A stretch of DNA of 64,000 nt from Candidatus Kapaibacterium sp. (GTDB lineage: Bacteria > Bacteroidota > Ignavibacteria > Kapaibacteriales > UBA2268). The stretch lies in the NCBI GenBank assembly GCA_963664875.1, contig OY761611.1, positions 1,376,001-1,440,000 of the forward strand. The letters run 5' to 3'. The position numbers and the translations under genes were made by a program. The notes under the pieces were generated by a model. That model worked only from the letters and a program-made list of their open reading frames with translations, ran no database searches and had not been told where the DNA came from. Positions 2,515 to 19,661 of the stretch are shown one piece after another (the first letter of the stretch is position 1; each line of letters starts with the position of its first letter).

Positions 2515-2664
2515 ATGAGAGCTATATCTAAAAAGATGATATCATCAGTGCAAGATGTGGATGCTGTTGATATATTTCTGCATTTAACAAATCCTAATAA
2601 CAAATGGATTTTCAATTCTTTACCCAATCTTTTAGTACAGAGTAGGAGGCAGCATGGAAAATAA
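2515..2664 (+). CDS. Small ORF (49 aa) overlapping the primase start
   Basis: AAGGAGG RBS at 2503-2509, ATG 2515, TAA 2662-2664. Confidence 0.5.
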   Translation: MRAISKKMISSVQDVDAVDIFLHLTNPNNKWIFNSLPNLLVQSRRQHGK

Positions 2665-3601
2665 ATCTTTCAGTAGTAATAGGACTAGTTGTCCTGAATG
2701 CGGAGCAAAAAGGGCATTTGCAGAATATGATGATGGCTCAGGTGGATATTGTCATTCATGTGGTAAAACTGTTATGTATAACTCGACTAAAAAGCAAGGT
2801 AAGCAAATGAAAAAACAACAAGAGAAGAGTCAATTGTTACAAACTATTACTCTTGAGCAATTTAATGAGTTAAGATCATGTGATGATTCAAATTTTAACG
2901 AGTATTTTGGTGAGCTATTTGGTGATGCTTTTAACAAACATTGTAATGATAATTATTTTTTAAGAGCTGATGATTATGGTGCAACAATCTTTACTTTTAT
3001 AGATTCTCAGGGATTTATTAGAAATTTAAAAAGCATGGCATACAAACAAGATGGTCATAGAGATAAGGTGGGATTTGTTCTAAAAATCAAGGAGAAAGAG
3101 ACTACTATACCTGTATTTTATGGATATCGATATGCAAAAAAAGGAAAATACGATATGATTAAATCCACTTCTGTGAAGAAACATTATTCACAGTGCCTGT
3201 TTGGTGAATACTACCTCAATTCACACAACTACATGATTGTAGGAGATCGAACCTATAAGTATGATGACAAGACCCCAGTTATATTATTAGAATCAGAAAA
3301 ATCTGTCTTAATATCTTCATTTCATTATCCATCTGTCATCTTCCTTGCAACAGGTGGAACGAATGGGTTAACAGAAGAAAAAGCGGAAATATTGAAAGAT
3401 AGAATTGTTTATATCATGTTTGACAACGAAGAAAAAGCTCAACTGAGAGCTGAAAAGGCAAAGATTGTTTTGACAGGAATTGCAAAGTCGGTTGATATAA
3501 TTGATATTTTCAAAAATTACAAGGTTGAAGAAGGTTATGATTTAGCTGATATTTTAGAACAACAAGCAATTTTAAGAGGAGAACAGAAAGATGACAAATA
3601 A
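2654..3601 (+). CDS. Primase-like protein (zinc ribbon + TOPRIM, DUF6371-like)
   Basis: CPECG...YCHSCG zinc finger; LFGE, ESEKS, LATGG, FDN and GYDLAD TOPRIM-type motifs; AGGAGG RBS. Confidence 0.8.
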   Translation: MENKSFSSNRTSCPECGAKRAFAEYDDGSGGYCHSCGKTVMYNSTKKQGKQMKKQQEKSQLLQTITLEQFNELRSCDDSNFNEYFGELFGDAFNKHCNDNYFLRADDYGATIFTFIDSQGFIRNLKSMAYKQDGHRDKVGFVLKIKEKETTIPVFYGYRYAKKGKYDMIKSTSVKKHYSQCLFGEYYLNSHNYMIVGDRTYKYDDKTPVILLESEKSVLISSFHYPSVIFLATGGTNGLTEEKAEILKDRIVYIMFDNEEKAQLRAEKAKIVLTGIAKSVDIIDIFKNYKVEEGYDLADILEQQAILRGEQKDDK

Positions 3602-4652
3602 TTTAAAACCGATAAGAGAATTCAATCTTATTCAAGAGTTGAATAACTATAATCACAAAAAGATTAAACAAAACACAATGAATTTTCGATTGGAACAAGC
3701 TGCTAATCAACCTCAGATGGAAGAATTATTTGGTTCTTATTTACAACGTGGAGAAATTTCAATAATCGCAGGTAACACAGGAGATGGTAAATCCACTTTA
3801 GCAGTTCAAATTGCTGACAGAATCACAAGGCAAAAAGGAATATGGAATGAAGTGAATACGCAAAAATATCCAATAATATACTATGATTTTGAGATGTCAG
3901 ACCAATCATTGCTAAAAAGATATCAATCTTATACTTTCGAATCTAACTTTTATTGTCCTGACGTTAGTGAAATTATTAAGAATTCAAATGGCGTATTTTC
4001 TATAGATACAATCAAGAATGATATCAACACTTTTGATGCTAATATAATCTTTATCGATAATATTACTGCAATGTCGCAAAAATCAACAATTGATCAAGAC
4101 TCTGCAAATAAACTAATGCGTGGATTAAAAACTCTACAAAGTACGTACAATACCACTATTTGTGTGTTAGCTCATGTGCCTAAAATTCCAAGTAATGTTC
4201 CTTTGCATATTAACCATGTCGCAGGGAGTAAAAATATTGTAAATTTTGCAGATAGTGTGCATATAATCGGACAGAGCAATCAATTACCTAATAGACGTTA
4301 TCTGAAGCAAGTTAAAAATCGTAATTCAGAAATGGAATCACAGGTAATGGTTATAGATTTAATCTGCGAAGATTATCTTCATTTTGATTTTATCAAGATG
4401 GATGATGAACGTAATCATATCGATGTTGATACGATTATGGAAGATAATAAGAAAAATAAACATATTGACATTGCTAATGAATTGATTGGTACTGATGCAA
4501 TAAAATACACTGATTTTGTAGATAATTACGCAAAAAAATACAATAAATCGATTGAAACGGGTAAGAAAGCAATTCAATATTTGAAGTTACACAATATAAT
4601 ACAGCAGAACGAATCGAAAGAATGGGAAGTCAATCCTGACTATCTAATTTAG
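3591..4652 (+). CDS. AAA ATPase / RecA-DnaB-type (RepA-like) helicase
   Basis: Walker A AGNTGDGKST, YYDFE, Walker B IIFIDN, LAHVPK, AGSK; overlaps primase end. Confidence 0.85.
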   Translation: MTNNLKPIREFNLIQELNNYNHKKIKQNTMNFRLEQAANQPQMEELFGSYLQRGEISIIAGNTGDGKSTLAVQIADRITRQKGIWNEVNTQKYPIIYYDFEMSDQSLLKRYQSYTFESNFYCPDVSEIIKNSNGVFSIDTIKNDINTFDANIIFIDNITAMSQKSTIDQDSANKLMRGLKTLQSTYNTTICVLAHVPKIPSNVPLHINHVAGSKNIVNFADSVHIIGQSNQLPNRRYLKQVKNRNSEMESQVMVIDLICEDYLHFDFIKMDDERNHIDVDTIMEDNKKNKHIDIANELIGTDAIKYTDFVDNYAKKYNKSIETGKKAIQYLKLHNIIQQNESKEWEVNPDYLI

Positions 4653-5028
4653 TGTAATTAGTGTAAAAACAATTAGTGTACTTTTACACTTTACACTTTA
4701 CACTTACATCTTTCTTTGGGTGAGCTTTTAAGGGCTCACCCTTATTTTTGATTTTAATCGTAAGAAAAAAAAGAAATTTTCTAAACTATTTAAACAACAC
4801 AGTTTACTTCAATTGATTTATATCCTTATTATATCAAGAAGTTGATTTCTAAGAATACAAAGAATTCTTTTTTTATTTTTCGAAAATTATCTACCTAATT
4901 AAGTTTAGTAAGCTTCTTTTAGTTCTAAATATTCTTTTCTTTTATTTTGACAAATAACAAACCTGTTGCAATTGCAACTATAGTGTAAAGTGTAAAAGTA
5001 CACTATTTATTTTTACATCTTTTACACT
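4651..5028. repeat. AGTGTAA/TTACACT heptamer clusters with 24-bp perfect inverted repeat; candidate replication origin
   Basis: 4674-4697 TAGTGTACTTTTACACTTTACACT is the exact reverse complement of 4982-5005; about 10 exact or near heptamer copies; AT-rich centre. Confidence 0.7.
4718..4749 (+). terminator. Probable terminator after helicase
   Basis: GGGTGAGC...GCTCACCC stem then TTATTTTT. Confidence 0.65.
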
Positions 5029-5395
5029 AACTCCGAAATCCAAAATCTATTTGCAAAACATACAGTCGTATGAGTCGTAATATTATAATAAGGAAGTATT
5101 TTTGAAATGGTAAATATTGAAGAAATCTATATAATTGGGTGCTCTGACGGGTGACTGGGGAAACAAAAAAAGGTAGAACCTTTACTAGCTCTACCGTTTC
5201 ATTGATACCGAGTACAGAAGGAGGGTGATTAGAATCAAAATGTATCGGATGATTTAACACATTCTTTTTTTGTTTTTCGCTTCCTCTCACAACTGAAAAG
5301 TCAAGAATTCTAAATACTCACTATGCCATCTTCAAATATTTTCGCCCGTTATCTTCAATAATCTGATTTTTCATTATTTGTATCTTTTTCGGAGA

Positions 5396-5864: not shown

Positions 5865-6593
5865 ATGAGAATAGTAGTAGAGTTAGAATCTTCTAATCAT
5901 ATTCTATTACCACATTCTATCAATAGTGTTATACAGTCTTTTTTATATAATGTAGTAAAAGGTGATTCTGAATTTGATGAGATGCACAAAAGTATCAGTT
6001 ATAAAAATTTTACGTTTTCAACGATTCGAGAACGATTCCGAAAAGTAGAAGGTGGAAGACTATATGGAAATTCTATATCTTTTGTCTTCTCAACCAACCA
6101 GCAAACATTAATAAATACATTACTGAACAGTATAATGTTCGCTTCAAATTTAGATTTAGCAGGCAATTCAGTAAGATTCAAATCTGTCTCACCAATTCAG
6201 AAGAAATCCTTTACTACAACCGAGAAAATGAAGACATTAAGTCCAATAACTGTCTACGATGATATTGTGAATTCCGAAGGTAAAAAGTTTAGGAGCTATT
6301 GTTTAGATGTGCATTCTGAAAGATTCACAAGATTACTTCGCAACAATCTGATAAGAAAAGCAAGTAAACTTTATAATTGGGATTTATCGGATTCTGAATT
6401 TGAGATTGAATGCTTATCAAACCCAAAAATTGTCTCTGCGACTTATAAGCATAAGAATAATGTGATTAAAGGCATCGATGCAATATTTAAGCTTACTGGT
6501 GATGAAAGATTGATTCAAGTTGCTTATGAAGTTGGCTTAGGCAGTAAAAATGCTCAGGGTTGGGGTTGTATAGAATTTGCAGGAGAAAAATAA
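5865..6593 (+). CDS. cas6: CRISPR endoribonuclease Cas6
   Basis: C-terminal G-loop GLGSKNAQGWG, TLSPI motif, FTFS; first gene of cas operon. Confidence 0.95.
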   Translation: MRIVVELESSNHILLPHSINSVIQSFLYNVVKGDSEFDEMHKSISYKNFTFSTIRERFRKVEGGRLYGNSISFVFSTNQQTLINTLLNSIMFASNLDLAGNSVRFKSVSPIQKKSFTTTEKMKTLSPITVYDDIVNSEGKKFRSYCLDVHSERFTRLLRNNLIRKASKLYNWDLSDSEFEIECLSNPKIVSATYKHKNNVIKGIDAIFKLTGDERLIQVAYEVGLGSKNAQGWGCIEFAGEK

Positions 6594-8467
6594 TGTTTTT
6601 AAATGCTTTATACGAAATTGGTGAATATCATAAAAAAAACATACTTAACAAAGGTGGTCTTCCTGAGCTCACTTTGAAAGAGGTACAATATCTTCATAAA
6701 ACAGGTACATATCAAAAGGTTGTAATTATGAATATACAAAGTTCCAATAGCACAGTATCCTTTTCAACCGAGGAATTAGAATCGACCGGAGATCACTCTC
6801 TACACTATTTATACAAATATCGTAATGGCTCCCAAGCAGGTAACGAATTTTCTTTTACTAACAAAATAAATATACAAAAAGAAAAGGATAAGAATAAAGA
6901 GAAAGCTGAAATCGATTGGAACAAATTCTTCAACTACTATAAAGCTAACAAAAATTCTTGGATTACTTGGTTAGAAGCTTGCATAGCTGAAGAATTTTAT
7001 CAAACAACTCAAAATATATTAAGAGCAATCATTCAAAATATTGAGAATATCAAATCTTATATTGAGACCTTATTTACGAATGATGATACTTTTAAAAAAG
7101 GCTGCATTTTTACGGTAAAATATAACGGTAAATATTTAAACGAAATCAAAGAGTGCGTTGAATGTTTTGACTATTGTGTGCAAAAACACAATAAGTCAGG
7201 AAACACAGAGCCAAATGTTTGCTGCTCTTTTTGCGGAAGTAACCAAAATGTCAGATATGGTATTCCAGAAGCATTCAAATTCGCAACCATAGATAAAGAA
7301 GGATTCGCAACTGACTTCAATGTTGACACAAATAGGGATTATCCAGTTTGTATCGAATGTCGTACAATCTTGACTTCAGGAAGACAATTTATTGATGATA
7401 ATTTGTCTTATTATTTCCACGGCTTAAAATATAAGGTTGTTCCACACTCTGTTTTTAAATCAGAAGTGTTGCTTGACAATATGTTATATAACTTAAAAGA
7501 AGCCAAAAATCCAAATTTATCTCAAAATCACTCTAATTTTATGTCTGATCCTGATGGTATCATTGAAGAAGCTTCTGAACTAAACAATAGTGTATTGTTA
7601 AATTTAGTGTTTTTATCACAGAAAGGCGTCGGTGGTGAACAAATTGATCTACTTATGCAAGATGTACTTCCAACTCGCTTAGCTGCGATAATAAAAGTAA
7701 AACATGATTTAGAAAATATGTACCCCTATAAAACGAAAGATGGTGAAATTAAACATATGCTTTTCAATATGGGCACAATCTTCAATTTTTACCAACATAA
7801 GAAAAGTAAAAATGCACCATTTGATAAATCATTTTTCGAACTTGTGGAAGCTATATTTAAAGGTGGTAAACTTAATAAAGATTTGATTGTCTCTAAGTTC
7901 ATGGATAAAATTCGGGAAGATGTTTATGAACCAGACAAAAAGCACCCCCATAACTACACTAAAGATTCCATAAGAATAATGCAATTCCTATCAAAATTAG
8001 ATATAGTAGATTTCAAATATAAAGGTAAACCTATGAAAGACAATATTTTCAAAGAATATTTTGAGCAAATAGGCATAGTCGATTCTTCATACTTAGCGGG
8101 CGTAATGCTTATCGGAGCCTTAGTAACCAAAGTTCGTATAGTACAGAAAGAAAATCTGGACAATGATCCCTTCAAGAAAAATCTAAAAGGATACAATTTA
8201 AACCGTGATGAGATTATTTTGCTTGCTAATAAAGTAAAAGCGAAGTTAGAAGAGTATAATGCTTTTAAAGGAACTGAAAATATAATTTTTGGAACTGCTT
8301 TTAAGCTTATGATGGATGCAACTCCAGTATCAAATGCCATGTCAAACTGGTATCTGATTGGTGGCATGAGTTTAGAATATGAAATTATGGGCATAGCAAT
8401 CGAATACCTAAAATCGCAAAAACCAAACTCTCAAGCAGAAGAACAAGAAAGCAATGAATCCAATTAA
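6593..8467 (+). CDS. cas8b: Type I-B large subunit Cas8b (Csh1/TM1802-like)
   Basis: ATG overlaps cas6 stop (TAATG); CSFCG...FKFATIDKEGF...YPVCIEC zinc motif; position between cas6 and cas7. Confidence 0.88.
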   Translation: MFLNALYEIGEYHKKNILNKGGLPELTLKEVQYLHKTGTYQKVVIMNIQSSNSTVSFSTEELESTGDHSLHYLYKYRNGSQAGNEFSFTNKINIQKEKDKNKEKAEIDWNKFFNYYKANKNSWITWLEACIAEEFYQTTQNILRAIIQNIENIKSYIETLFTNDDTFKKGCIFTVKYNGKYLNEIKECVECFDYCVQKHNKSGNTEPNVCCSFCGSNQNVRYGIPEAFKFATIDKEGFATDFNVDTNRDYPVCIECRTILTSGRQFIDDNLSYYFHGLKYKVVPHSVFKSEVLLDNMLYNLKEAKNPNLSQNHSNFMSDPDGIIEEASELNNSVLLNLVFLSQKGVGGEQIDLLMQDVLPTRLAAIIKVKHDLENMYPYKTKDGEIKHMLFNMGTIFNFYQHKKSKNAPFDKSFFELVEAIFKGGKLNKDLIVSKFMDKIREDVYEPDKKHPHNYTKDSIRIMQFLSKLDIVDFKYKGKPMKDNIFKEYFEQIGIVDSSYLAGVMLIGALVTKVRIVQKENLDNDPFKKNLKGYNLNRDEIILLANKVKAKLEEYNAFKGTENIIFGTAFKLMMDATPVSNAMSNWYLIGGMSLEYEIMGIAIEYLKSQKPNSQAEEQESNESN

Positions 8468-8485
8468 TAAAGTATAGGCAATAAC

Positions 8486-9439
8486 ATGAGTAATATTAAA
8501 TCTTCAGAAATCATATTTTTATATGACTTAGAAAAATGCAATCCAAATGGTGATCCAATAGCCAACAACTTACCAAGAATAGATGAAGAAACATCAAAAG
8601 TTTATGCAACCGATGTTTTTCTTAAGCATCATATAAGAGAGTACATGTATCAGAATACAATTCCGAAATTAGATGGTAATTTTGACATCTGGGTCAGAGA
8701 TACAAGAGAAGAAAATGGTGGGAAAGTAGTTGATGCAAAGAAGAGATATGAAAGTCTTAATATAAGTGCAAAAGATGATAAAGCTAAAGAAGAATTCTTA
8801 GAAAGATGCCTAGATGCACAAATGTTCGGTGCAGTAGTACCACTAAAAAAGGAAAACTATCATTTAACTGGAGCTTGGCAGTTTATGAATATCAAATCTT
8901 TACATCAAGTAGATGTAATTACAGATAAAGGTATTACTACTTTTGCTTCAGGTGATAATAAATCTCAAGGAACTTTCAGAGAAGATCACTACGTGAATTA
9001 TGCTTTGATGCAATCATATAGCAGAGTAAATGCAAATGCTGCCGAGAAAAATCTATTAAAACAAGAAACTTTAGATGCTGGTTTAGAAGCTATGTGGTAT
9101 GGAATCAAAAATTTAAATACACGTAGTAAATTGGGTCATGATTCTAAGTTACTTTTAGTTGTAGAATACAAAACAAACAATCGTTTTATTGGAAACAAAC
9201 TTAACAATTCCATAACTCTCACACTTAAGGATGGTGTAATCACAGAGAAAGGTATCAGAGCAGGTTCTGATTATAACCTTAATATGGATGCTTTACAAAA
9301 TCTATTAGTATCGAATAAATCTATTATCCACAAAATTAAATTTCACTACGAAGCTCATGATCCTCACGTTTCTTCATTTAAGGATTTTAAAGCTAATTTA
9401 CAAAAAGAAGGTATAGAGATTGAAGATTTAAAATACTAA
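8486..9439 (+). CDS. cas7: Type I-B Cas7b (Csh2)
   Basis: NPNGDP..NLPRID, TDVFLKHHIREY, DAQMFGAV, TRSK motifs. Confidence 0.93.
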   Translation: MSNIKSSEIIFLYDLEKCNPNGDPIANNLPRIDEETSKVYATDVFLKHHIREYMYQNTIPKLDGNFDIWVRDTREENGGKVVDAKKRYESLNISAKDDKAKEEFLERCLDAQMFGAVVPLKKENYHLTGAWQFMNIKSLHQVDVITDKGITTFASGDNKSQGTFREDHYVNYALMQSYSRVNANAAEKNLLKQETLDAGLEAMWYGIKNLNTRSKLGHDSKLLLVVEYKTNNRFIGNKLNNSITLTLKDGVITEKGIRAGSDYNLNMDALQNLLVSNKSIIHKIKFHYEAHDPHVSSFKDFKANLQKEGIEIEDLKY

Positions 9440-9448
9440 GGTGAAAAA

Positions 9449-10156
9449 ATGAAAGTTCTCATTTTCGAAATAAGTGGTGAGTTTGCACATTTCAAACCTT
9501 ATGATACAACTTCAACCAAGCTAAGTTACCCATTCCCAACTCCACCAACTGTTTTAGGAATGATTGGTGCCATTTTAGGTTTGTCAAAGCAAGATCAGCA
9601 GTATCTAAAAATATTGAACGATGCTAATACTAAAGTAGCTGTTTCAATTTTGAACCCAGTCAAAAAGTTACATTGGGGCTTAAATCTTCTAAATACAAAA
9701 GGTAACATTGTTGACTTATCTAACGGTCATACTCAAGTATTGACCGAGTTTATTAAAGATGCTCGTTATAGAATTATTGTGTCAATGGAAAAGCAAGATT
9801 TATATAATTCTCTCAAAGAAAGATTAGAAAAGAAAGAGTCTTATTATGATCTGTGCTTGGGTATCACAGAATGTTTAGCTGACTTTGAATTTGTAGGAGA
9901 ATACGAAGCAAGTCTGAACAAATATAATTCTATCGAAGTAGATTCTGTTATACCCATAGACGAATCAATCGAAAACAAGATAGACTTTACATCAGTACAA
10001 GAAAAAATAACAATGCCAAGAATACCATATAAAATGGAAGTAGGAAGAATTGCATCTTATAGGAATGTACTTGTGAACGAAGGAGCCAAACCAATAGCAA
10101 TAAAAAATATAGAATGTTATACGACTGATGTTTGCAATTTCTTGTTTTTGAATTGA
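9449..10156 (+). CDS. cas5: Type I-B Cas5b
   Basis: GEFAHFK...SYPFPTPPTVLGMIGAILG; LCLGITECLA. Confidence 0.93.
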   Translation: MKVLIFEISGEFAHFKPYDTTSTKLSYPFPTPPTVLGMIGAILGLSKQDQQYLKILNDANTKVAVSILNPVKKLHWGLNLLNTKGNIVDLSNGHTQVLTEFIKDARYRIIVSMEKQDLYNSLKERLEKKESYYDLCLGITECLADFEFVGEYEASLNKYNSIEVDSVIPIDESIENKIDFTSVQEKITMPRIPYKMEVGRIASYRNVLVNEGAKPIAIKNIECYTTDVCNFLFLN

Positions 10157-10157
10157 T

Positions 10158-12494
10158 ATGATTATGTTACTATCTCATCCAGACACTATATTATCAGACC
10201 ACCTCGAAGGAGTGCTGCTCAATTCTGTTCGTATGTACGAAGAAATGAATATCACTTCTTCATATGGTGTTGATTATTTAAAAGTTGTAAAGTTGGTAGC
10301 TTTGTTTCACGATTTCGGGAAGTGTACTAATTATTTCCAAAATTATATTCGTGGAGATAAAAGTGGAAGTTCTCTTTTAAGACAACATTCCATATTAAGT
10401 GCTATTGTAGTTTCACATTTAGTTATATCAGTTGTTGAAAGTAAACATGCAGAAGAACTTTCACTTTATGCTTTTCTCTCAGTATTGTATCATCATGGTA
10501 ATCTTAATAACTTATATAATAAATTGCTTGGAATCAATAGCAATGATACAATTGTATTACTCAGCCAACAAATAAATGCAGTATCCTTTGATTCAGTAAA
10601 CGAATGCTATAATCCACTGCTCAAAGATTACTTATCTATTGATATCACTTTTACGGCTGAAAAGCTGACAGAATATATTGATACTCTAAAATCTTCAATA
10701 CGTAAACTCAACAAAACTTTAAGGAAAATAAAAGAAACAAACTCTTTTGAATCTTATCTGCATTTGATGACATTCTGGTCTTTACTTGTTGATGCAGATA
10801 AAAAACATGCAAACTTCAAAGAGGTATTGCAAAAGCATTCGTCTAAAATTGATACAGATGCTGCTAAAAAGTACATTATGAAATTTCCAAAAGACGAATC
10901 ACCGATGTGTAAACTTAGAACAGAAGCTTTTGAGACAGTTGAACAGAATATTCTAAAATCATCAGACAAAGCTGATATTTTTAGCGTAGAATTGCCTACC
11001 GGAGCAGGAAAGACACTAAACGTTTTGAATGCAGCACTTCGATTGAGAAATAAAAGGTATGATGAAACCGGGAAGTACAAAAAAATTATAAACGGTCTGC
11101 CGTTTTTATCAATCATTGATCAAACAGCAAAAGTCTATAGAGACGTATTTGATTTAGATGACAGCAATTCAGATGTTATGACTGTTCAGCACTCTTTGGC
11201 TGACTATTCCTTATTCAAACAGGGGGATGTCGAATATAAAGATGATTCCAGAGCGGAGATGCTAATCGAAACATGGGAATCTGAGATAATAGTTACCACA
11301 TTTGTGCAAATATTCCATACCTTGTTTACCAATAAAAACGGCAATGCAAGGAAATTCCATACAATATCCAATTCAATTTTAGTATTAGATGAGGTTCAAG
11401 CTATTCCTTCTAAATATCATAAACTTGTAAATGAGATGTTTCAAGCTTTAGTTAAAGTTTACAACACTGATATTATTACAATGACTGCTACTAATATTTA
11501 CGAGTTCGATAATGCAAAACGTTTATGTGATGCTACATTTTATAATGACTTAGATAGAATTGTTTTGAAATATTTTGATGATGTACTAACAGTCGAAGAA
11601 TTCTTTCAAAAGCTTGATTTGCAGGCAGACAAATCTTATATGTTTGTTATGAATACAATCAAAAGTGCTAAAATACTGCACCAATTGCTGTCTGATTCAC
11701 TACAGGAAGAAGTTGCCTTCTTATCGACAGAGATTATTCCATTTCAGAGATTAGGTATCATATCTGATATTAAGAATAAAAAATATAGATTTTTGGTTAC
11801 AACGCAACTTATCGAAGCTGGAGTAGATGTTACATTTGATGTTGTCTATCGTGATATGACCAGAATGGATTCAATTGTGCAAACAGCAGGCAGATGTAAT
11901 AGGCATTACACAGATAAACAAGGAGAAGTAAATGTTATTAAGCTGAAAGACAAAAGAAAAGAGTATGCAGAGTATATTTATGATTCAATGGACTTATTCC
12001 AAACATCTGAAACGCTTAAAACATATCTTGATGGACAGAACATGATTCGAGAATCTAATTTTTACAATCTAATAAAAGACTTTAGTGCAAAACTACAGGC
12101 AAAAACAACAGATTCAAATGCTTATATTGAAGCAGTAAATCAGTTAAAATTTATCAACTCACAGGAAGACAAATATAATATTGCAACATTCAAACTGATA
12201 GATAATTCTGATTATGAGAAAATAGATGTGTTTGTAGAGTATAATCAGGAAGCCGTTGATATTTGGCAAAAGTATATGCAAATCAAGAAAATTGAAAATA
12301 GATTTGACAGGAAACTACAGTTTAAGCTTATTAAAAATATCTTCCAGAAGTATGTGATTAGCGTTTCAAAGCAAAGATATTGTACGGATTCAAATGCAGA
12401 TGGATTATATTATATACCGCAAGGGCAATTAGAATTTTCATATGGGAAGGTCGGTTTCATGGGATTTGGGCTTGAAGCAAATAATATAATTTAG
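10158..12494 (+). CDS. cas3: Cas3 HD nuclease-helicase
   Basis: FHDFGK, HHG, LVDAD (HD); LPTGAGKT, LDEVQ, MTAT, TQLIEAGVD, QTAGRCNR (SF2). Confidence 0.95.
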   Translation: MIMLLSHPDTILSDHLEGVLLNSVRMYEEMNITSSYGVDYLKVVKLVALFHDFGKCTNYFQNYIRGDKSGSSLLRQHSILSAIVVSHLVISVVESKHAEELSLYAFLSVLYHHGNLNNLYNKLLGINSNDTIVLLSQQINAVSFDSVNECYNPLLKDYLSIDITFTAEKLTEYIDTLKSSIRKLNKTLRKIKETNSFESYLHLMTFWSLLVDADKKHANFKEVLQKHSSKIDTDAAKKYIMKFPKDESPMCKLRTEAFETVEQNILKSSDKADIFSVELPTGAGKTLNVLNAALRLRNKRYDETGKYKKIINGLPFLSIIDQTAKVYRDVFDLDDSNSDVMTVQHSLADYSLFKQGDVEYKDDSRAEMLIETWESEIIVTTFVQIFHTLFTNKNGNARKFHTISNSILVLDEVQAIPSKYHKLVNEMFQALVKVYNTDIITMTATNIYEFDNAKRLCDATFYNDLDRIVLKYFDDVLTVEEFFQKLDLQADKSYMFVMNTIKSAKILHQLLSDSLQEEVAFLSTEIIPFQRLGIISDIKNKKYRFLVTTQLIEAGVDVTFDVVYRDMTRMDSIVQTAGRCNRHYTDKQGEVNVIKLKDKRKEYAEYIYDSMDLFQTSETLKTYLDGQNMIRESNFYNLIKDFSAKLQAKTTDSNAYIEAVNQLKFINSQEDKYNIATFKLIDNSDYEKIDVFVEYNQEAVDIWQKYMQIKKIENRFDRKLQFKLIKNIFQKYVISVSKQRYCTDSNADGLYYIPQGQLEFSYGKVGFMGFGLEANNII

Positions 12495-12620
12495 TCGTCT
12501 GGCTCGTATAATACAAAAATCACTGAACCTCGACGACTTATTTATTGGAGTTTGAGATACTTTTCTAATGCTACGAACGATACGATTTATTAAAATAGCT
12601 TGTTCTTTGAAAATTTGAGG
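12495..12620 (+). promoter_or_regulatory. CRISPR leader containing boxA-like GTTCTTTGAAAA (12602-12613)
   Basis: Non-coding gap between cas3 and first repeat; degenerate repeats are at the opposite end; same 12-mer occurs in both rrn leaders. Confidence 0.8.
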
Positions 12621-13244
12621 ATAGAAATACCTGCTATAAGCAGGGATGATTTGTCAGATTGTTCGCCTCTGATGCTGTTAGCTGTATAGAAATACCTGCT
12701 ATAAGCAGGGATGATGGTATATCACGAGTTGGTACACCACCATCGTAGGTATAGAAATACCTGCTATAAGCAGGGATGATGATGCAGTTGATATTGATAT
12801 TGAACCGACAGAGCAAATAGAAATACCTGCTATAAGCAGGGATGATATAGTGGTTTATAACAATGGTGAAAAAGTTACTTTTGAATAGAAATACCTGCTA
12901 TAAGCAGGGATGATTCAATTCTTTCTGGTCTATCTAATCCGAATAATTCTATAGAAATACCTGCTATAAGCAGGGATGATATGTTCTTTATGTACTTCAT
13001 TCCACTTGGAAAGTTCATAGAAATACCTGCTATAAGCAGGGATGATGGATTAAACAAAGCTCTAAAATCGCAAGGTCGTTCAATAGAAATACCTGCTATA
13101 AGCAGGGATGATTTTTCTAATTCTCCTATATAAAAAAAGCGGTCTGTATAGAAATACCTGCTATAAGCAGGGATGATTTAAGTAAGCATACATACTAAGG
13201 CAACCTGCTTCTTGATAGAAATACCTGCTATAAGCAGGGATGAT
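12621..13244 (+). CRISPR. Array segment 1: chimeric repeat ATAGAAATACCTGCTATAAGCAGGGATGAT, 10 copies (10th is the IS junction), 9 spacers
   Basis: Repeats start at 12621, 12686, 12751, 12817, 12885, 12951, 13017, 13083, 13148, 13215; spacers 35-38 nt. Confidence 0.97.
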
Positions 13245-14426
13245 TTGTTCTTTGTAAATATCATATAATATAGTAAATTATAGAAAGCCAAACACAAACT
13301 TTTCTAATCTGGGGGGATTTATGGAAAAGCAAACGTTAGTAAATTATCTTGATAAGTTGACAGATAAGCGTCGCAGGGAAGGCACACGCCATAATCAATC
13401 ATTTGTATTATTGCTGGTTTTGATGGCGACTATGAGCGGACAATATGGCTATCGTGGCATAGAAAGATTTATAAAGAAGAATGCCGAAGACATACTGAAA
13501 TATTTAAAGCCTCATAAAGATAGATTACCAACTTACGCAACAATTTTTAGAGTGGTAAATAATATAGATTTTGATGAATTTGCACAGATTTTTAAAGAGT
13601 GGTCAAAAGTTTATGCAAAGCCTCAAAGCGGTGAAATAATCAGTATAGATGGCAAAGCTTTGAAAGGCACATTAGTAGAATACAATTCGAAATACCAGAA
13701 CTTTATAAGCATTGTTTCTGCACATTCTCAATCAAGTAAAATGTCACTAAGTATAAGCAAATATGAGAATAAAAAATCAAGCGAGATAAGCGTAGTTGAA
13801 GAAATGATTAGAGATTTAGAACTGACTGGCGTAGTCTTTACAATGGATGCTTTACACTGTCAAAAAAACTCTAAGAACAATTGTTAGTACTAACAACAAC
13901 TATATTATTTGCGTAAAAAAGAATCAAGGTCGTTTGTACAAAGAACTGGAGAGTTTGAGTTCGAGCTGGTCAACAAAGATCGATTATTATAAAACCGAAG
14001 AAACTAATAGAGACAGACGAGAAACTCGTAAAGTATATGTATATTCATTAAACGATAAAATTAAGAACGAGTGGTCCGGATCACAGCAATTAGTAAAGGT
14101 ACAAAGGATTAGAAAAACAAAACAAATGCAGGAAGTTCATGTACATTATTATTTGAGCAGTCAAGAAAAACCAGCAAAGTATTATATGCAGAGCATACGA
14201 GGACATTGGGGCATTGAAAACCAGCTACATTGGGTAAAGGATGTGGTAATGAAAGAAGATGCTTGGAAAGTGAGAAATACACAAGCAGCTTCAGTCATGA
14301 GTATAATAAAGTCAATTTGTATCAATATTTTTAGGTCAAAGAAGCGTATTGATTGTACCAACTTTTTCTATGAGACTGCCGACAATGTAGAACTATTGGT
14401 GACTTTGTTAGAATGAATCAACCCTG
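13235..14426 (+). mobile_element. ISAs1-family IS, copy 1 (1192 bp)
   Basis: Ends CAGGGATGATTTGTTCT / AGAATGAATCAACCCTG (14/17 inverted match); 10-bp duplication CTGCTATAAG at 13225-13234 and 14427-14436. Confidence 0.95.
13321..14416 (+). CDS. ISAs1 DDE transposase split in two frames (13321-13887, 13847-14416)
   Basis: IDGKALKG, KSSEI, TMDALHCQK, VKKNQ, IRGHWGIENQLHWVKDVVMKED; frame break at A7 run 13862-13868. Confidence 0.9.
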
Positions 14427-14965
14427 CTGCTATAAGGGGTTTAAACTAAAAGGCAATAAGCTGTATTTGACGTTAGGACTTGATAGAAATACCTGCTATA
14501 AGGGGTTTAAACTTTGGTAATGATGCTAAGAGCTGCAGCACATCACTAATAGAAATACCTGCTATAAGGGGTTTAAACGAAGGCAGCCATGATGACATGG
14601 TAGATGCGACAACAATAGAAATACCTGCTATAAGGGGTTTAAACTTATTTCACCTCTGTGATAAAATTTTCAGCACTAAGATAGAAATACCTGCTATAAG
14701 GGGTTTAAACAATTCTAATGAATATTCTTTAGCTGTTTCCCGTGCAAATAGAAATACCTGCTATAAGGGGTTTAAACGAAATTAAAGAAAAAAAACTATT
14801 AGATTTTGCTGAATAGAAATACCTGCTATAAGGGGTTTAAACTAGACTTCAACTGAGACATAAACTGAGAAATATTAAATAGAAATACCTGCTATAAGGG
14901 GTTTAAACCATTCATTAAAAACTTACAATAAAAAAGCATGGAAAAATAGAAATACCTGCTATAAG
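14427..14965 (+). CRISPR. Array segment 2: original repeat ATAGAAATACCTGCTATAAGGGGTTTAAAC, 7 full repeats plus two IS-split halves, 8 spacers
   Basis: Full repeats at 14483, 14549, 14615, 14681, 14748, 14813, 14879. Confidence 0.97.
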
Positions 14966-16157
14966 CAGGGATGATTTGTTCTTTGTAAATATCATATAAT
15001 ATAGTAAATTATAGAAAGCCAAACACAAACTTTTCTAATCTGGGGGGATTTATGGAAAAGCAAACGTTAGTAAATTATCTTGATAAGTTGACAGATAAGC
15101 GTCGCAGGGAAGGCACACGCCATAATCAATCATTTGTATTATTGCTGGTTTTGATGGCGACTATGAGCGGACAATATGGCTATCGTGGCATAGAAAGATT
15201 TATAAAGAAGAATGCCGAAGACATACTGAAATATTTAAAGCCTCATAAAGATAGATTACCAACTTACGCAACAATTTTTAGAGTGGTAAATAATATAGAT
15301 TTTGATGAATTTGCACAGATTTTTAAAGAGTGGTCAAAAGTTTATGCAAAGCCTCAAAGCGGTGAAATAATCAGTATAGATGGCAAAGCTTTGAAAGGCA
15401 CATTAGTAGAATACAATTCGAAATACCAGAACTTTATAAGCATTGTTTCTGCACATTCTCAATCAAGTAAAATGTCACTAAGTATAAGCAAATATGAGAA
15501 TAAAAAATCAAGCGAGATAAGCGTAGTTGAAGAAATGATTAGAGATTTAGAACTGACTGGCGTAGTCTTTACAATGGATGCTTTACACTGTCAAAAAAAC
15601 TCTAAGAACAATTGTTAGTACTAACAACAACTATATTATTTGCGTAAAAAAGAATCAAGGTCGTTTGTACAAAGAACTGGAGAGTTTGAGTTCGAGCTGG
15701 TCAACAAAGATCGATTATTATAAAACCGAAGAAACTAATAGAGACAGACGAGAAACTCGTAAAGTATATGTATATTCATTAAACGATAAAATTAAGAACG
15801 AGTGGTCCGGATCACAGCAATTAGTAAAGGTACAAAGGATTAGAAAAACAAAACAAATGCAGGAAGTTCATGTACATTATTATTTGAGCAGTCAAGAAAA
15901 ACCAGCAAAGTATTATATGCAGAGCATACGAGGACATTGGGGCATTGAAAACCAGCTACATTGGGTAAAGGATGTGGTAATGAAAGAAGATGCTTGGAAA
16001 GTGAGAAATACACAAGCAGCTTCAGTCATGAGTATAATAAAGTCAATTTGTATCAATATTTTTAGGTCAAAGAAGCGTATTGATTGTACCAACTTTTTCT
16101 ATGAGACTGCCGACAATGTAGAACTATTGGTGACTTTGTTAGAATGAATCAACCCTG
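14966..16157 (+). mobile_element. ISAs1-family IS, copy 2 (1192 bp, apparently identical to copy 1)
   Basis: Same ends, same length, identical translated ORFs; duplication CTGCTATAAG at 14956-14965 and 16158-16167. Confidence 0.95.
15052..16147 (+). CDS. ISAs1 transposase split in two frames (15052-15618, 15578-16147)
   Basis: Same proteins as copy 1; A7 run at 15593-15599. Confidence 0.9.
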
Positions 16158-18490
16158 CTGCTATAAGGGGTTTAAACTTGAGATATTATTGTAAAATTGT
16201 GATTATTTGATTTCATAGAAATACCTGCTATAAGGGGTTTAAACGAGTGCAAAGTGTTCCATTCTTGTCGAGCCATACGGAATAGAAATACCTGCTATAA
16301 GGGGTTTAAACCTAATATATATTTTCATTATTCACTCCTAAATTGATAATAGAAATACCTGCTATAAGGGGTTTAAACACTACTGTGTTGAAAGATATGT
16401 TAAATGCCATATCAGATAGAAATACCTGCTATAAGGGGTTTAAACATATATTCAGTAAGAAGTTTTAAACAAGACCCATTAATAGAAATACCTGCTATAA
16501 GGGGTTTAAACTTTATAATGTCGTAATCTTTGTTAGCCTGAATGTTAATAGAAATACCTGCTATAAGGGGTTTAAACTCTGCTTCCTTATGTGATTTGCG
16601 GGTAGTACTACTATAGAAATACCTGCTATAAGGGGTTTAAACGCAAAGTTGTGCATTTTAGAAGCGACTGGCAACTCATAGAAATACCTGCTATAAGGGG
16701 TTTAAACTCGTTTTGATGCCGTTTACAACTGTGCCGATGCCTGCATAGAAATACCTGCTATAAGGGGTTTAAACGCAGCTGCAACCGGGTCATCGAGCGA
16801 TACATTGAATATAGAAATACCTGCTATAAGGGGTTTAAACATGCTTTTTGATATATTATTTGGCATTTGCAATTGAATAGAAATACCTGCTATAAGGGGT
16901 TTAAACAAGTTTGGAGTTTTCAATTTCATGTCTTCGAACAAATAGAAATACCTGCTATAAGGGGTTTAAACAAATTGATTTGAACGGCGTTGCATTCAGC
17001 ACGTCAAATAGAAATACCTGCTATAAGGGGTTTAAACACGTTTGCGGCTCTAATGCCTGCTTTTAAAAAGCTCAATAGAAATACCTGCTATAAGGGGTTT
17101 AAACGTAGATTATACTTCGGAGGAATCAGTAGAATTGATAATAGAAATACCTGCTATAAGGGGTTTAAACTTAACGAATTGGTCATTAACATAACCGATT
17201 GTTTGCGGATAGAAATACCTGCTATAAGGGGTTTAAACTGTTGAAGAGGAATGGAAGCATATTACTTGTCCTCGATAGAAATACCTGCTATAAGGGGTTT
17301 AAACGAATCAATCTCAATAAACAATATATTACTTTTAGTAATAGAAATACCTGCTATAAGGGGTTTAAACTGTTGAAGAGGAATGGAAGCATATTACTTG
17401 TCCTCGATAGAAATACCTGCTATAAGGGGTTTAAACAAAGCTGTGCCGGGGTTCGCTTAAATCTCTGATAAATAGAAATACCTGCTATAAGGGGTTTAAA
17501 CATCACTAATGAAGTCAGATTGAAGGTAGCTCGTTCGATAGAAATACCTGCTATAAGGGGTTTAAACTTGGCTGAACCGCTACGAGGCAATGGTATTGAT
17601 TTAATAGAAATACCTGCTATAAGGGGTTTAAACATGAATGCCGAGGCAGTAGAGGGGCGTGCAAGGCGTATAGAAATACCTGCTATAAGGGGTTTAAACG
17701 ACGTTCTGATATTAAGTCTTTGTCCAATCTGTACGAATAGAAATACCTGCTATAAGGGGTTTAAACAATATTGTTTTGTTAAAAGCTATCTCGAAAACTA
17801 TAATAGAAATACCTGCTATAAGGGGTTTAAACTCGTTTTTACCTGTTTTTTCTTTTGTTCCATTTTGATAGAAATACCTGCTATAAGGGGTTTAAACGTA
17901 ACTCCGTGCCAATCTCACTAAATATATTTGCATATAGAAATACCTGCTATAAGGGGTTTAAACTCAAAACTCTTAATCATATCAATACCGACTTCACTTA
18001 TAGAAATACCTGCTATAAGGGGTTTAAACCAATATTTCGAGCAGATACGAAACGATGCCGAGTTTATAGAAATACCTGCTATAAGGGGTTTAAACTTGTC
18101 AGCTATTGACAAAATGCTCAATGAAGCAGAATAGAAATACCTGCTATAAGGGGTTTAAACAATTCTGAAACATATTTTGCAATTTTTTTTAGTTTTATAG
18201 AAATACCTGCTATAAGGGGTTTAAACTTGACTACATTGTTTTCTTTACATATTCTAAATACCTATAGAAATACCTGCTATAAGTGGTTTAAACATCGAAA
18301 CTTACGGCAATGTAGCGACTGCTCTGAATATAGAAATACCTGCTATAAGGGGTTTAAACACAGTTAAAAGGTTTACTTGTCATGTGATAATAGAATAGAA
18401 ATACCTGCTATAAGGGGTTTAAATTGTGCTGACTGTATCGAATTTACGGTAGAAAATGAAATAGAAATACCTGCTATAAGGAGTTTAATT
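16158..18490 (+). CRISPR. Array segment 3: original repeat, 35 full repeats plus IS-split half, 35 spacers
   Basis: Repeats from 16215 to 18461; trailer-end variants at 18264 (G>T), 18395 (ends AAAT), 18461 (GAGTTTAATT) give + orientation. Confidence 0.97.
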
Positions 18491-18707: not shown

Positions 18708-19661
18708 ATGATAATATTTAGTCAACTAAAAACGGATTTCATCATGTCAAAAAATACAATTCCATCAAATTCAGCAATTGATTTCCAACATCTCTTCAAC
18801 GAGTTGGTGTATCATTACTTCCCTACTCCAATGATTAATTATCATCTTGAGCGATTTGAAACAAAAGATGATAAGATCCTTTATTTAAAAGAAATGCAAA
18901 TTCGTTTTTATCATCTAACACTAATAAAATGTGACTATTGCGAACAGACAAAAGATATACCATTACTTCATACAGAAGCACGACCGAATTTCCATGATTA
19001 TCGTATAAGTATCAGTAATGTTAAAGTTGATGATAACTTCAAGCACTACATCTACGGACCACTCAAATTCAATGATGTAGAAGCTACAAAAGTATTTAAC
19101 AGATTTGATATACTTCTAAACAGAACACTCATGCTGTTCAAACCTGATCCGACGTTTTTAACGAACTGGGAAGAAGTAAAGGGACATCTGCAAAATATTA
19201 GTTCTGTCAAGAACAAAAAGAAGTATTTGCTGCAATTAAACTCAAACTTCAACAACCACCCTCATTATTGGGGCACAAGAGAAGAACAGGAATCTTTCAA
19301 GAAATTGCTTTCTGCAAAATATCAAAAACTTAAGCAGATAGTATTTGAAGCAAGTGCAGAACCAACATTCAAAAAACAAGAAAAAGTTGAATCCCAAAAT
19401 TTGGAAAAGCAGAGAGCTGAACAAACAACAAGTTCTGACAGAGCAAAACAAAAAACATCTTTTGCAGAGAACAATTCCAATGACTTCATAAAAATAGAGG
19501 AAGTAACGCAAATACTAAAAATTTGCAAACCTACAGTTTACAGCTATCGCAATAAAGGTTTGATACAGTCATACAAAATGGGTAGAAATGTCTATTATAA
19601 AAGAAGTGAAATCTTTGAAGCACTAAATAATGGCAAAGTAAAGTATGGTAAAACTAAGTAA
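18708..19661 (+). CDS. Protein with C-terminal excisionase/MerR-like HTH
   Basis: FIKIEEVTQILKICKPTVYSYRNKGLIQSYKMGRNVYYKRSEI. Confidence 0.8.
   Translation: MIIFSQLKTDFIMSKNTIPSNSAIDFQHLFNELVYHYFPTPMINYHLERFETKDDKILYLKEMQIRFYHLTLIKCDYCEQTKDIPLLHTEARPNFHDYRISISNVKVDDNFKHYIYGPLKFNDVEATKVFNRFDILLNRTLMLFKPDPTFLTNWEEVKGHLQNISSVKNKKKYLLQLNSNFNNHPHYWGTREEQESFKKLLSAKYQKLKQIVFEASAEPTFKKQEKVESQNLEKQRAEQTTSSDRAKQKTSFAENNSNDFIKIEEVTQILKICKPTVYSYRNKGLIQSYKMGRNVYYKRSEIFEALNNGKVKYGKTK

What the first reader, a model, noticed from the sequence alone, without database searches (positions are those of the whole stretch)
12621..13244. CRISPR repeat rewritten by a transposon end and then propagated
Seen: all leader-side repeats read ATAGAAATACCTGCTATAAG+CAGGGATGAT, whereas the 42 full repeats beyond IS copy 1 end GGGTTTAAAC (three trailer variants). 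CAGGGATGAT is exactly the first 10 nt of the ISAs1 element (13235, 14966). Length stays 30 nt and spacers stay 35-38 nt. Known: acquisition duplicates the leader-adjacent repeat. Inference: the IS landed in the then-first repeat and the integrase, measuring 30 bp from the leader junction, copied the chimera 9 times. This implies the last third of the repeat is dispensable for integration and gives a one-step route to new repeat families. I do not know of a described case.
Basis: partly seen in the sequence, partly recalled or inferred. Interest (0 to 1): 0.95.

Follow-up and report, generated by a model that had tools for sequence, protein, structure and literature searches.

The report
Transposon-end chimera copied as CRISPR repeat
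A jumping gene landed in the first repeat of a bacterial CRISPR array, and the spacer-capturing enzyme then copied the half-repeat, half-transposon sequence nine times, which shows in nature that it measures the far end of the repeat and does not read it.

Summary
Window 12621-18490 is a type I-B CRISPR array of 53 repeats behind cas6-cas8b-cas7-cas5-cas3. The 10 leader-side repeats are 20 nt of repeat plus CAGGGATGAT. Those 10 nt are the left terminus of a 1192-bp ISAs1-family IS with 7 copies in the genome. The tenth chimeric repeat is the junction with IS copy 1, which has a 10-bp target duplication. Removing the IS and one duplicate restores a perfect repeat.

A same-genus relative has the same leader followed by the original-type repeat, so the chimera is derived. 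Contigs from four public runs reproduce the structure, so it is not a misassembly.

Best explanation: the IS hit the then-first repeat, and Cas1-Cas2 kept integrating at the leader junction, duplicating exactly 30 bp in 9 of 9 events.

New here: this locus has no cas1, cas2 or cas4. The only set in the genome sits 780 kb away beside a 270-repeat array with a different repeat, so integration was probably in trans.

The last third of a I-B repeat was already shown to be dispensable by mutagenesis in Haloarcula hispanica (Wang 2016). The mechanism is therefore known. A natural, IS-born, propagated chimera was not found in print. Whether chimeric crRNAs work is untested.

The parts
5865..12494 (+). 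Type I-B effector operon: cas6 (5865-6593), cas8b (6560-8467), cas7 (8486-9439), cas5 (9449-10156), cas3 (10158-12494). No cas4, cas1 or cas2 follows.
   Evidence: Pfam and NCBIfam hits: TIGR01877, TIGR02556/TIGR02591, TIGR02590, TIGR02592, TIGR01587+TIGR01596. The only Cas1 and Cas2 in the genome are at G000 2155714-2156848.
12495..12620 (+). Leader of 126 nt. Its last 21 nt (12600-12620, TTGTTCTTTGAAAATTTGAGG) are a motif conserved in the sister species.
   Evidence: The alignment with the G094 leader has the same end motif directly before the first repeat.
12621..13244 (+). Ten chimeric repeats (repeat nt 1-20 plus IS nt 1-10) and 9 unique spacers of 35-38 nt. The tenth repeat is the repeat/IS junction.
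   Evidence: Reproduced by Logan contigs.
13235..14426 (+). ISAs1-family IS copy 1 (1192 bp). Ends CAGGGATGAT...ATCAACCCTG. The transposase is split at an A7 run (ORFs 13321-13887 and 13847-14416).
   Evidence: NF033564 122.7 bits, PF13808, PF01609. There are 7 genomic copies, and the other 6 include 5 identical ones and one with 5 mismatches.
14427..14446 (+). Second copy of the target duplication CTGCTATAAG plus the original last 10 nt of the interrupted repeat (GGGTTTAAAC).
   Evidence: Removing the IS and one duplicate restores the 30-nt repeat.
14447..14965 (+). Array segment 2: 8 spacers, 7 original repeats, and the first 20 nt of repeat 18.
14966..16157 (+). IS copy 2, identical to copy 1, at the same position of repeat 18 with the same target duplication.
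16158..18490 (+). The 20-nt 3' remnant of repeat 18, then array segment 3 (repeats 19-53). The last repeats are degenerate, marking the trailer end.

Best explanation
An ISAs1-family insertion sequence prefers hairpin-like targets of the form CCNNNNNNGG followed by GG. It inserted after nt 20 of the repeat that then lay next to the leader. The 30 bp after the leader became repeat nt 1-20 plus IS nt 1-10.

The spacer integrase (Cas1-Cas2, with Cas4) kept recognising the intact leader and the 5' two-thirds of the repeat. It made its second cut 30 bp downstream whatever the sequence there. Each of 9 later acquisitions therefore duplicated the chimera. The tenth copy is still joined to the IS.

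The integrase is most likely the only set in the genome. It is encoded in a second type I-B locus 780 kb away and acts in trans. The sister species shows the same division of labour.

Shown: the anatomy, the IS origin of the 10 nt, that the chimera is the derived state, and the exact 30-bp copies.

Inferred: the order of events, which integrase acted, and the ruler-like second cut.
For: - Anatomy and exactness: 9 of 9 copies are exactly 30 bp, and the nucleotide after position 30 varies.
- IS terminus: found in 7 of 7 copies and in the G093 relative of the IS.
- Target duplication: 10 bp at both array insertions.
- Ancestral state: in G094 the homologous cas3 and leader (ending TTGTTCTTTGAAAATTTGGGG) are followed by 36 repeats ATAGAAATACCTAATTTAAGGGGTTTAAAT, which become degenerate at the far end.
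- Integrase: there is one Cas1 (TIGR03641, type I-B Cas1b, 430 bits) and one Cas2 in the genome, both beside array 2. G094 likewise has no adaptation genes at locus 1, and it has a locus 2 with an identical array-2 repeat.
- Shared spacers: two are shared between arrays 1 and 2, in the same orientation and with the same 5' boundary.
- Spacer lengths: indistinguishable between the two arrays (p=0.79) and between new and old spacers in array 1 (p=0.40, small counts).
- Acquisition history: none of the 317 G000 spacers matches the G094 array regions held in L039 and L040, so array 1 grew after the species split.
- Arbitrary ~30-bp duplication in the sister array: a 35-nt insert flanked by a 29-bp duplication that starts at repeat nt 23.
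- Experimental precedent: in H. hispanica I-B, repeats mutated at 21-25, 26-30 or 23-30 still acquire spacers, and the duplication still ends at 30 bp 'sequence-independently' (PMC4872114, abstract and sections 13-14).
- Not a misassembly.
Against: - No strain without the IS, and none with fewer or more chimeric units, was found, so the order of events is inferred from a single genome.
- No protospacer was found for any spacer, so PAM-guided acquisition of the 9 new spacers is not shown.
- Array 1 and array 2 repeats agree at only about 12 of 30 positions (my count by eye). Array 1 lacks the AACCC-like motif at 11-15 that is essential in H. hispanica. Use in trans by the locus-2 integrase is therefore plausible but unproven.
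- In H. hispanica, changing the 18-22 motif impaired adaptation and often gave 31-bp copies. Here 18-22 changed from AAGGG to AAGCA, yet all 9 copies are 30 bp, so the published anchor model does not transfer exactly.
- If chimeric crRNAs are inactive, nine neutral acquisitions had to become fixed without selection.
Confidence: 0.85

Rival explanations
1. The same chimera-copying took place, but the integrase was a cas4-cas1-cas2 module that once lay next to this array and has since been lost, not the locus-2 set acting in trans.
For: Canonical I-B operons carry cas4-cas1-cas2 between cas3 and the leader (general knowledge). The two arrays have quite different repeats and very divergent Cas6 proteins.
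Against: The sister species G094 has the same cas3-leader-array layout without adaptation genes, and a conserved leader. Cas8b is only 59% identical between the species, so the layout is old. No spacer is shared between the species, so the whole array grew afterwards. No Cas1 or Cas2 remnant lies elsewhere in the genome.
Confidence: 0.1
2. Assembly artefact: the chimeric repeats arose from collapsing or mis-joining IS and CRISPR reads.
For: IS copies and CRISPR repeats are classic sources of assembly error.
Against: Ten chimeric repeats flank nine different spacers, which a mis-join cannot produce. k-mer contigs from 4 of 4 runs in 2 studies give the leader joined to the chimeric repeat, chimeric repeat-spacer-chimeric repeat pieces, and pieces from the chimeric repeat into the IS interior. 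No differences were listed.
Confidence: 0.01
3. The chimeric repeats arose without spacer acquisition, either by gene conversion from the IS junction or by repeated IS insertion and imprecise excision leaving a 10-nt footprint.
For: The IS clearly favours this repeat. Two insertions lie at the same position, and 3 of 7 copies are in CRISPR arrays.
Against: Conversion needs homology on both sides, and the spacers are unique. Nine identical deletions of about 1.2 kb, each removing exactly IS nt 11-1192 plus 20 nt, are implausible. The chimeric repeats form one uninterrupted block at the leader end, as polar acquisition predicts.
Confidence: 0.02
4. CAGGGATGAT was an older natural repeat variant, and the match to the IS end is coincidence or the IS end derives from the repeat.
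For: None beyond the formal possibility.
Against: A 10-nt match has about a 1 in 10^6 chance. The IS has the matching right inverted repeat, and the same end occurs at 4 non-CRISPR sites. The IS relative in G093 has CAGGGTTGAT. G093 gave no Cas1 match and no Cas8b match. The sister array has the original repeat at the leader.
Confidence: 0.01

Closest known systems
Repeat-mutant adaptation assays in Haloarcula hispanica type I-B (Wang et al. 2016, PMC4872114; abstract and sections 13-14 read)
   Same: The repeat is 30 bp and Cas1 is of the same NCBIfam family (cas1_HMARI). Duplication starts at the leader junction and ends at a fixed distance whatever the sequence. Mutated 3' parts of the repeat are copied into new repeats.
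   Different: Here the 'mutation' is natural: 10 nt of an IS terminus, followed by the rest of the IS in place of a spacer. It was propagated over 9 events in a wild genome. The array's repeat lacks the AACCC and GTGGG motifs at the published positions. All copies stayed at 30 bp although positions 21-22 of the 18-22 anchor changed. The integrase is encoded at another locus.
Two molecular rulers in the E. coli type I-E repeat (Goren et al. 2016, PMC5039180; only the search listing and the start of the abstract seen)
   Same: The idea that repeat size is measured and not read.
   Different: A different subtype and a laboratory mutagenesis study. No transposon-derived sequence is involved.
Non-canonical spacer integration creating neo-CRISPR loci (Nivala, Shipman and Church 2018; not held; known to me only from its citation in PMC6698737, and from recall)
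   Same: Cas1-Cas2 duplicates about a repeat length of whatever sequence lies at the integration site. The 29-bp duplication with a 35-nt insert in the G094 array looks like such an event.
   Different: The main finding lies at the canonical leader junction of a real array, and the new 'repeat' was used again and again.
IS and transposon insertions in CRISPR arrays: Xanthomonas citri (PMC6889575, passages read), Mycobacterium tuberculosis (as cited there), and Tn7-like elements that target CRISPR repeats (PMC11837452, one passage read)
   Same: Mobile elements insert in repeats or spacers. The Tn7-like paper raises the possibility that arrays go on acquiring spacers after an insertion.
   Different: In the passages I read, none reports repeats rebuilt from the element's end, or their propagation.
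Casposon-origin hypothesis for CRISPR repeats (recalled; PMC4046053 seen only in a search listing)
   Same: A transposon terminus becomes part of the repeat unit of an array.
   Different: That is a hypothesis about the deep origin of CRISPR and involves Cas1-encoding casposons. This is a recent event with an unrelated DDE-transposase IS.

Membership tests
Type I-B CRISPR-Cas (locus in the window) | Cas8b, Cas7, Cas5 and Cas6 of I-B type, plus Cas3 | tested here: met
   TIGR02556 183.5 bits (cut-off 156.95), TIGR02590 188.4 (171.55), TIGR02592 126.7 (97), TIGR01877 126.9 (58.65). Cas3: HD domain over its cut-off, helicase core 97.0 just below 102.45. Pfam hits agree.
Type I-B CRISPR-Cas (locus in the window) | Adaptation module cas4-cas1-cas2 in the operon | tested here: not met
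   cas3 ends at 12494 and the leader follows. The single genomic Cas1 and Cas2 are at G000 2155714-2156848.
Type I-B CRISPR-Cas (locus in the window) | Array of about 30-nt repeats with 34-38-nt spacers, a leader next to the cas genes, and a degenerate trailer repeat | tested here: met
   53 repeats of 30 nt, spacers of 35-38 nt, last repeat GAGTTTAATT. No Rfam CRISPR-DR family matched.
ISAs1 family insertion sequence | ISAs1-type DDE transposase | tested here: met
   NF033564 122.7 bits (cut-off 70) on ORF1. PF13808 and PF01609.
ISAs1 family insertion sequence | Terminal inverted repeats, target-site duplication, several copies | tested here: met
   The ends CAGGGATGAT and CAGGGTTGAT (the right end read as its reverse complement) match at 9 of 10 positions. 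There are 7 copies. A 10-bp direct duplication is seen at 4 of 7, a 9 of 10 match at 1 of 7, and inverted-type flanks at 2 of 7. The family's usual duplication size of 8-10 bp is recalled, not checked.
ISAs1 family insertion sequence | Single uninterrupted transposase ORF | tested here: not met
   The ORF is split at an A7 run into 188 and 189 aa in the copies here. The same split and A7 run occur in the 81%-identical IS of G093, so slippage is probably programmed (inference).
Ruler-type repeat duplication by Cas1-Cas2 (H. hispanica I-B model) | Copy length stays constant when the repeat's 3' third is changed | tested here: met
   9 of 9 chimeric copies are exactly 30 bp.
Ruler-type repeat duplication by Cas1-Cas2 (H. 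hispanica I-B model) | Essential AACCC at 11-15 and anchor GTGGG/GTTGG at 18-22 | tested here: inconclusive
   The array 1 repeat has CTGCT at 11-15, and AAGGG at 18-22, which is AAGCA in the chimera. Array 2 has CACCA and GTAGT. The motifs are not conserved in array 1, yet it acquired spacers.
Ruler-type repeat duplication by Cas1-Cas2 (H. hispanica I-B model) | Direct demonstration that Cas1-Cas2 makes the cuts | not testable with these tools
   Needs an adaptation assay or in vitro integration.

The most novel reading that the evidence does not exclude
The chimeric repeat may be a working new repeat, not just a tolerated integration substrate. Cas6 would still cut it, and Cascade would load crRNAs whose 8-nt 5' handle is GGGATGAT in place of GTTTAAAC. 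An IS insertion would then have created a new functional repeat lineage in one step. The lineage would be fed by an integrase borrowed from another locus that recognises only the leader and the first two-thirds of the repeat. This would be a present-day parallel to the proposed transposon-end origin of CRISPR repeats.
Probability: 0.15. Interest if true: 0.85.

Novelty: new variant of a known kind. Interest (0 to 1): 0.6.

Why it matters
It is a natural experiment on how the spacer integrase defines a repeat. With the last 10 bp replaced by foreign DNA and an entire IS behind it, nine successive acquisitions still copied exactly 30 bp.

This agrees with mutagenesis in one archaeal I-B system. 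It extends the result to a bacterial I-B array whose repeat lacks the published motifs and whose integrase is apparently supplied by a different locus.

It also sets up a clean test of how far adaptation and interference are uncoupled. The nine newest spacers carry a changed crRNA 5' handle and a much stronger hairpin (-8.7 against -4.1 kcal/mol).

Finally, it shows one way that repeat sequences can jump instead of drifting.

Tried and rejected
**Protospacer searches found nothing usable.**
- New spacers against phage records gave only E >= 0.2 hits to Bacillus phages.
- New spacers against plasmids gave no match.
- Old spacers against phages gave no match.
- New spacers against 254 genomes of the order gave only weak hits, and the best two overlap repeat sequence.
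- Only short 17-24-nt matches were found in the own genome.
- PAM and strand therefore could not be analysed.

**Search for relatives of the array.**
- There is no array with this repeat in the 129 other family genomes. Six genomes have single hits with 1-2 mismatches.
- There was one single hit in genome contigs and one in metagenome contigs. Both are lone chance matches, not arrays.
- The leader-junction pattern found nothing in metagenomes.

**Other negative or unavailable results.**
- Rfam: no family matched.
- In one search, run X5 shows no depth over about 12948-13190. This is not evidence of absence.
- The Nivala 2018 paper is not held.
- Supplements were not consulted. Supplementary Data S1 of PMC4872114 lists duplicated sequences and may bear on the comparison.

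**Literature.** Searches found no report of an IS-derived chimeric repeat being propagated. The library is open-access only, so this is not proof of absence.

**Ideas considered and dropped.**
1. The IS subterminal TTGTTCTTTGTAAAT acts as a second leader. The geometry does not fit, because integration would fall inside the IS.
2. The IS in array 2 marks a boundary between repeat-variant blocks. This was my error, corrected: it lies inside the 'G' block.
3. Misassembly, gene conversion, excision footprints and coincidence: see the rival explanations.

Full report
**1. Observation**

The 20-nt core ATAGAAATACCTGCTATAAG occurs 53 times in the window, all on the + strand, from 12621 to 18461. Shuffles give 0. 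It occurs nowhere else in the genome.

Parsing the array gives this layout:
- Repeats 1-10 end CAGGGATGAT and are separated by 9 different spacers of 35, 35, 36, 38, 36, 36, 36, 35 and 37 nt.
- Repeat 10 runs directly into a 1192-bp element (13235-14426).
- Repeats 11-17 end GGGTTTAAAC.
- Repeat 18 again reads CAGGGATGAT because a second, identical element starts there (14966-16157).
- Repeats 19-53 end GGGTTTAAAC, except nos. 50, 52 and 53, which are degenerate.

Each element is followed by CTGCTATAAG+GGGTTTAAAC. Removing the element and one CTGCTATAAG restores a perfect 30-nt repeat.

**2. The element**

ORF1 matches the NCBIfam ISAs1 transposase model (122.7 bits against a cut-off of 70) and PF13808. 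ORF2 matches the DDE domain PF01609.

The genome is a single 3.83-Mb contig and holds 7 copies. Five of the other 6 are identical to copy 1, and one differs at 5 positions. All 7 begin CAGGGATGAT and end ATCAACCCTG, so the termini match 9 of 10 as inverted repeats.

Four copies lie outside CRISPR arrays, in sites of the form CCNNNNNNGG followed by GG. Direct 10-bp duplications are seen at 4 of 7 copies, a 9 of 10 match at one, and inverted-type flanks at two.

A sister species (G093) has 9 copies of an 81%-identical IS of the same length, with ends CAGGGTTGAT...ATCAACCCTG and the same kind of target. The 10 nt in the chimeric repeats are therefore IS sequence. The repeat's CCTGCTATAAGGGG resembles the preferred target, which explains two hits at the same position.

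**3. Which end is the leader, and which repeat is ancestral**

Upstream lie cas6, cas8b, cas7, cas5 and cas3 of type I-B, followed by 126 nt and then repeat 1. Degenerate repeats lie at the far end.

A same-genus genome (G094; Cas8b 59% identical) has the same gene order. Its cas3 is the same length, and its leader ends TTGTTCTTTGAAAATTTGGGG, against ...TTTGAGG here. After the leader come 36 repeats ATAGAAATACCTAATTTAAGGGGTTTAAAT, which become degenerate at the far end.

The left side is therefore the leader, and the original 3' end is the ancestral state next to it. The chimera is derived.

**4. Not an artefact**

Contigs built independently from 4 of 4 public runs (3 samples, 2 studies; possibly one strain) cover three structures:
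- cas3 through the leader to the end of the first chimeric repeat (12300-12649/12650);
- several chimeric repeat-spacer-chimeric repeat pieces;
- chimeric repeat into the IS interior.

No differences were listed.

**5. Who integrated the spacers**

This locus has no cas4, cas1 or cas2. A six-frame search finds one Cas1 and one Cas2 in the genome, 780 kb away. They lie in a second I-B locus, ordered cas6-?-cas3-?-cas7-cas4-cas1-cas2. Its Cas1 scores 430 bits on the I-B Cas1b model.

That locus is followed by an array of 270 repeats CATCTAATCGCACCACTGTAGTATTGAAAT. These are also 30 nt, with 34-38-nt spacers.

G094 shows the same split. Its locus 1 has no adaptation genes, and its locus 2 has an identical array-2 repeat.

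Further points in favour of use in trans:
- None of G000's 317 spacers matches the G094 array regions held in L039 and L040, so array 1 was filled after the species diverged.
- Two old array-1 spacers recur in array 2 with the same orientation and 5' boundary.
- Spacer-length distributions do not differ (p=0.79).
- The four leaders share the motif GTTCTTTGA(A/C)AA(T/C)TT and a GAAAAT...GG ending.

I conclude that the locus-2 integrase serves both arrays. This is likely but unproven. The two Cas6 proteins are almost unrelated, so crRNA processing is probably locus-specific.

**6. Mechanism**

The simplest history is this. The IS entered the repeat next to the leader. The integrase still found the leader junction and the first 20 nt of the repeat, and it cut 30 bp downstream in IS sequence. 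Gap repair then duplicated the 30-bp chimera. This happened nine times, each time exactly 30 bp.

This matches mutagenesis in H. hispanica I-B, where repeats changed at 21-25, 26-30 or 23-30 still expand and duplication 'terminated sequence-independently' (PMC4872114).

It does not match that model in detail. The proposed anchor at 18-22 is AAGGG here and AAGCA in the chimera, and 11-15 is CTGCT, yet no 31-bp copies occur.

Two further observations from the same system fit sequence-blind copying:
- Array 2 shows long blocks that differ only at repeat position 30: T x135 (one of them with a G-to-A change at position 10), A x100, G x9, T x24.
- The G094 array contains a 35-nt insert flanked by a 29-bp duplication made of 8 nt of repeat plus 21 nt of spacer. 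It lies just after CTAATTTAAGGG, which resembles the leader end.

**7. What remains open**

- No strain lacking the IS, or holding a different number of chimeric units, was found.
- No protospacer was found.
- Function of the new units is unknown. Their predicted 5' handle would be GGGATGAT in place of GTTTAAAC. That is my inference from the usual 8-nt handle of type I systems. The chimeric repeat folds into a 6-bp hairpin of -8.7 kcal/mol, against -4.1 for the original.

**8. Comparison and novelty**

IS insertions in arrays are common (PMC6889575). Transposons that target repeats are described, with the remark that arrays may go on acquiring spacers afterwards (PMC11837452). Ruler-type duplication is established in the laboratory.

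Eight full-text searches found no report of a natural repeat rebuilt from an IS terminus and then propagated. I rate it a new variant of a known kind. It is a neat, well-supported natural experiment. Its main added value is the in-trans integrase and the open question of whether the chimeric units function.

Noticed in passing
L039 (G094) about 4924-5083, minus strand: In the sister species' array, a 35-nt insert is flanked by a perfect 29-bp direct duplication that starts at repeat nt 23 (8 nt of repeat plus 21 nt of spacer). It looks like an off-register spacer integration next to a sequence that mimics the leader end.
   Followed up: partly
G000:C1:2172994-2174264 (outside the window): A third IS copy sits inside a spacer of array 2 that contains the IS's favourite target CCCCTCAAGAGGGG, so 3 of 7 IS copies are in CRISPR arrays. 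Its flanks, CCTCAAGAGG and CCTCTTGAGG, are inverted and not direct. The copy at 2078469 shows the same thing. This is unexplained.
   Followed up: partly
window 13861-13869 and 15592-15600: The transposase is split at a CAAAAAAAC run into ORFs of 188 and 189 aa in the copies here. The same run and the same split occur in the 81%-identical IS of G093, which suggests programmed slippage and not decay.
   Followed up: partly
window 12600-12614 versus 13245-13259: The leader motif TTGTTCTTTGAAAAT and the IS subterminal TTGTTCTTTGTAAAT match at 14 of 15 positions. The motif is conserved in all four leaders compared and in the G093 IS. Both may simply be Bacteroidetes-type promoter boxes (recalled consensus, untested).
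   Followed up: partly
G000:C1:2157135-2176329 (outside the window): Array 2 has 270 repeats. Repeat position 30 changes in long blocks: T x135 (one with a G-to-A change at position 10), A x100, G x9, T x24. Single-base variants of the last repeat position were therefore propagated from the leader end several times.
   Followed up: partly
window 17239-17274 and 17371-17406; 18161-18196; 18227-18263: Array 1 holds one duplicated spacer (nos. 34 and 36). Two old spacers recur in array 2 (nos. 187 and 99 there) with the same orientation and start.
   Followed up: yes
G000:C1:2078469-2086512 (outside the window): Two IS copies in opposite orientation are each preceded and followed by the same flanking sequences, which form a long palindrome around the insertion point. 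This could be a duplicated site or an inversion between the copies.
   Followed up: no
window 2654-4652 and 18708-19661: Upstream of the cas operon lie a DUF6371 protein and an AAA_25/DnaB-like ATPase, which may belong to a mobile element. Downstream of the array is a 317-aa ORF with a weak hit to the MADS1 defence HTH domain (27.9 bits, below its cut-off of 80).
   Followed up: no
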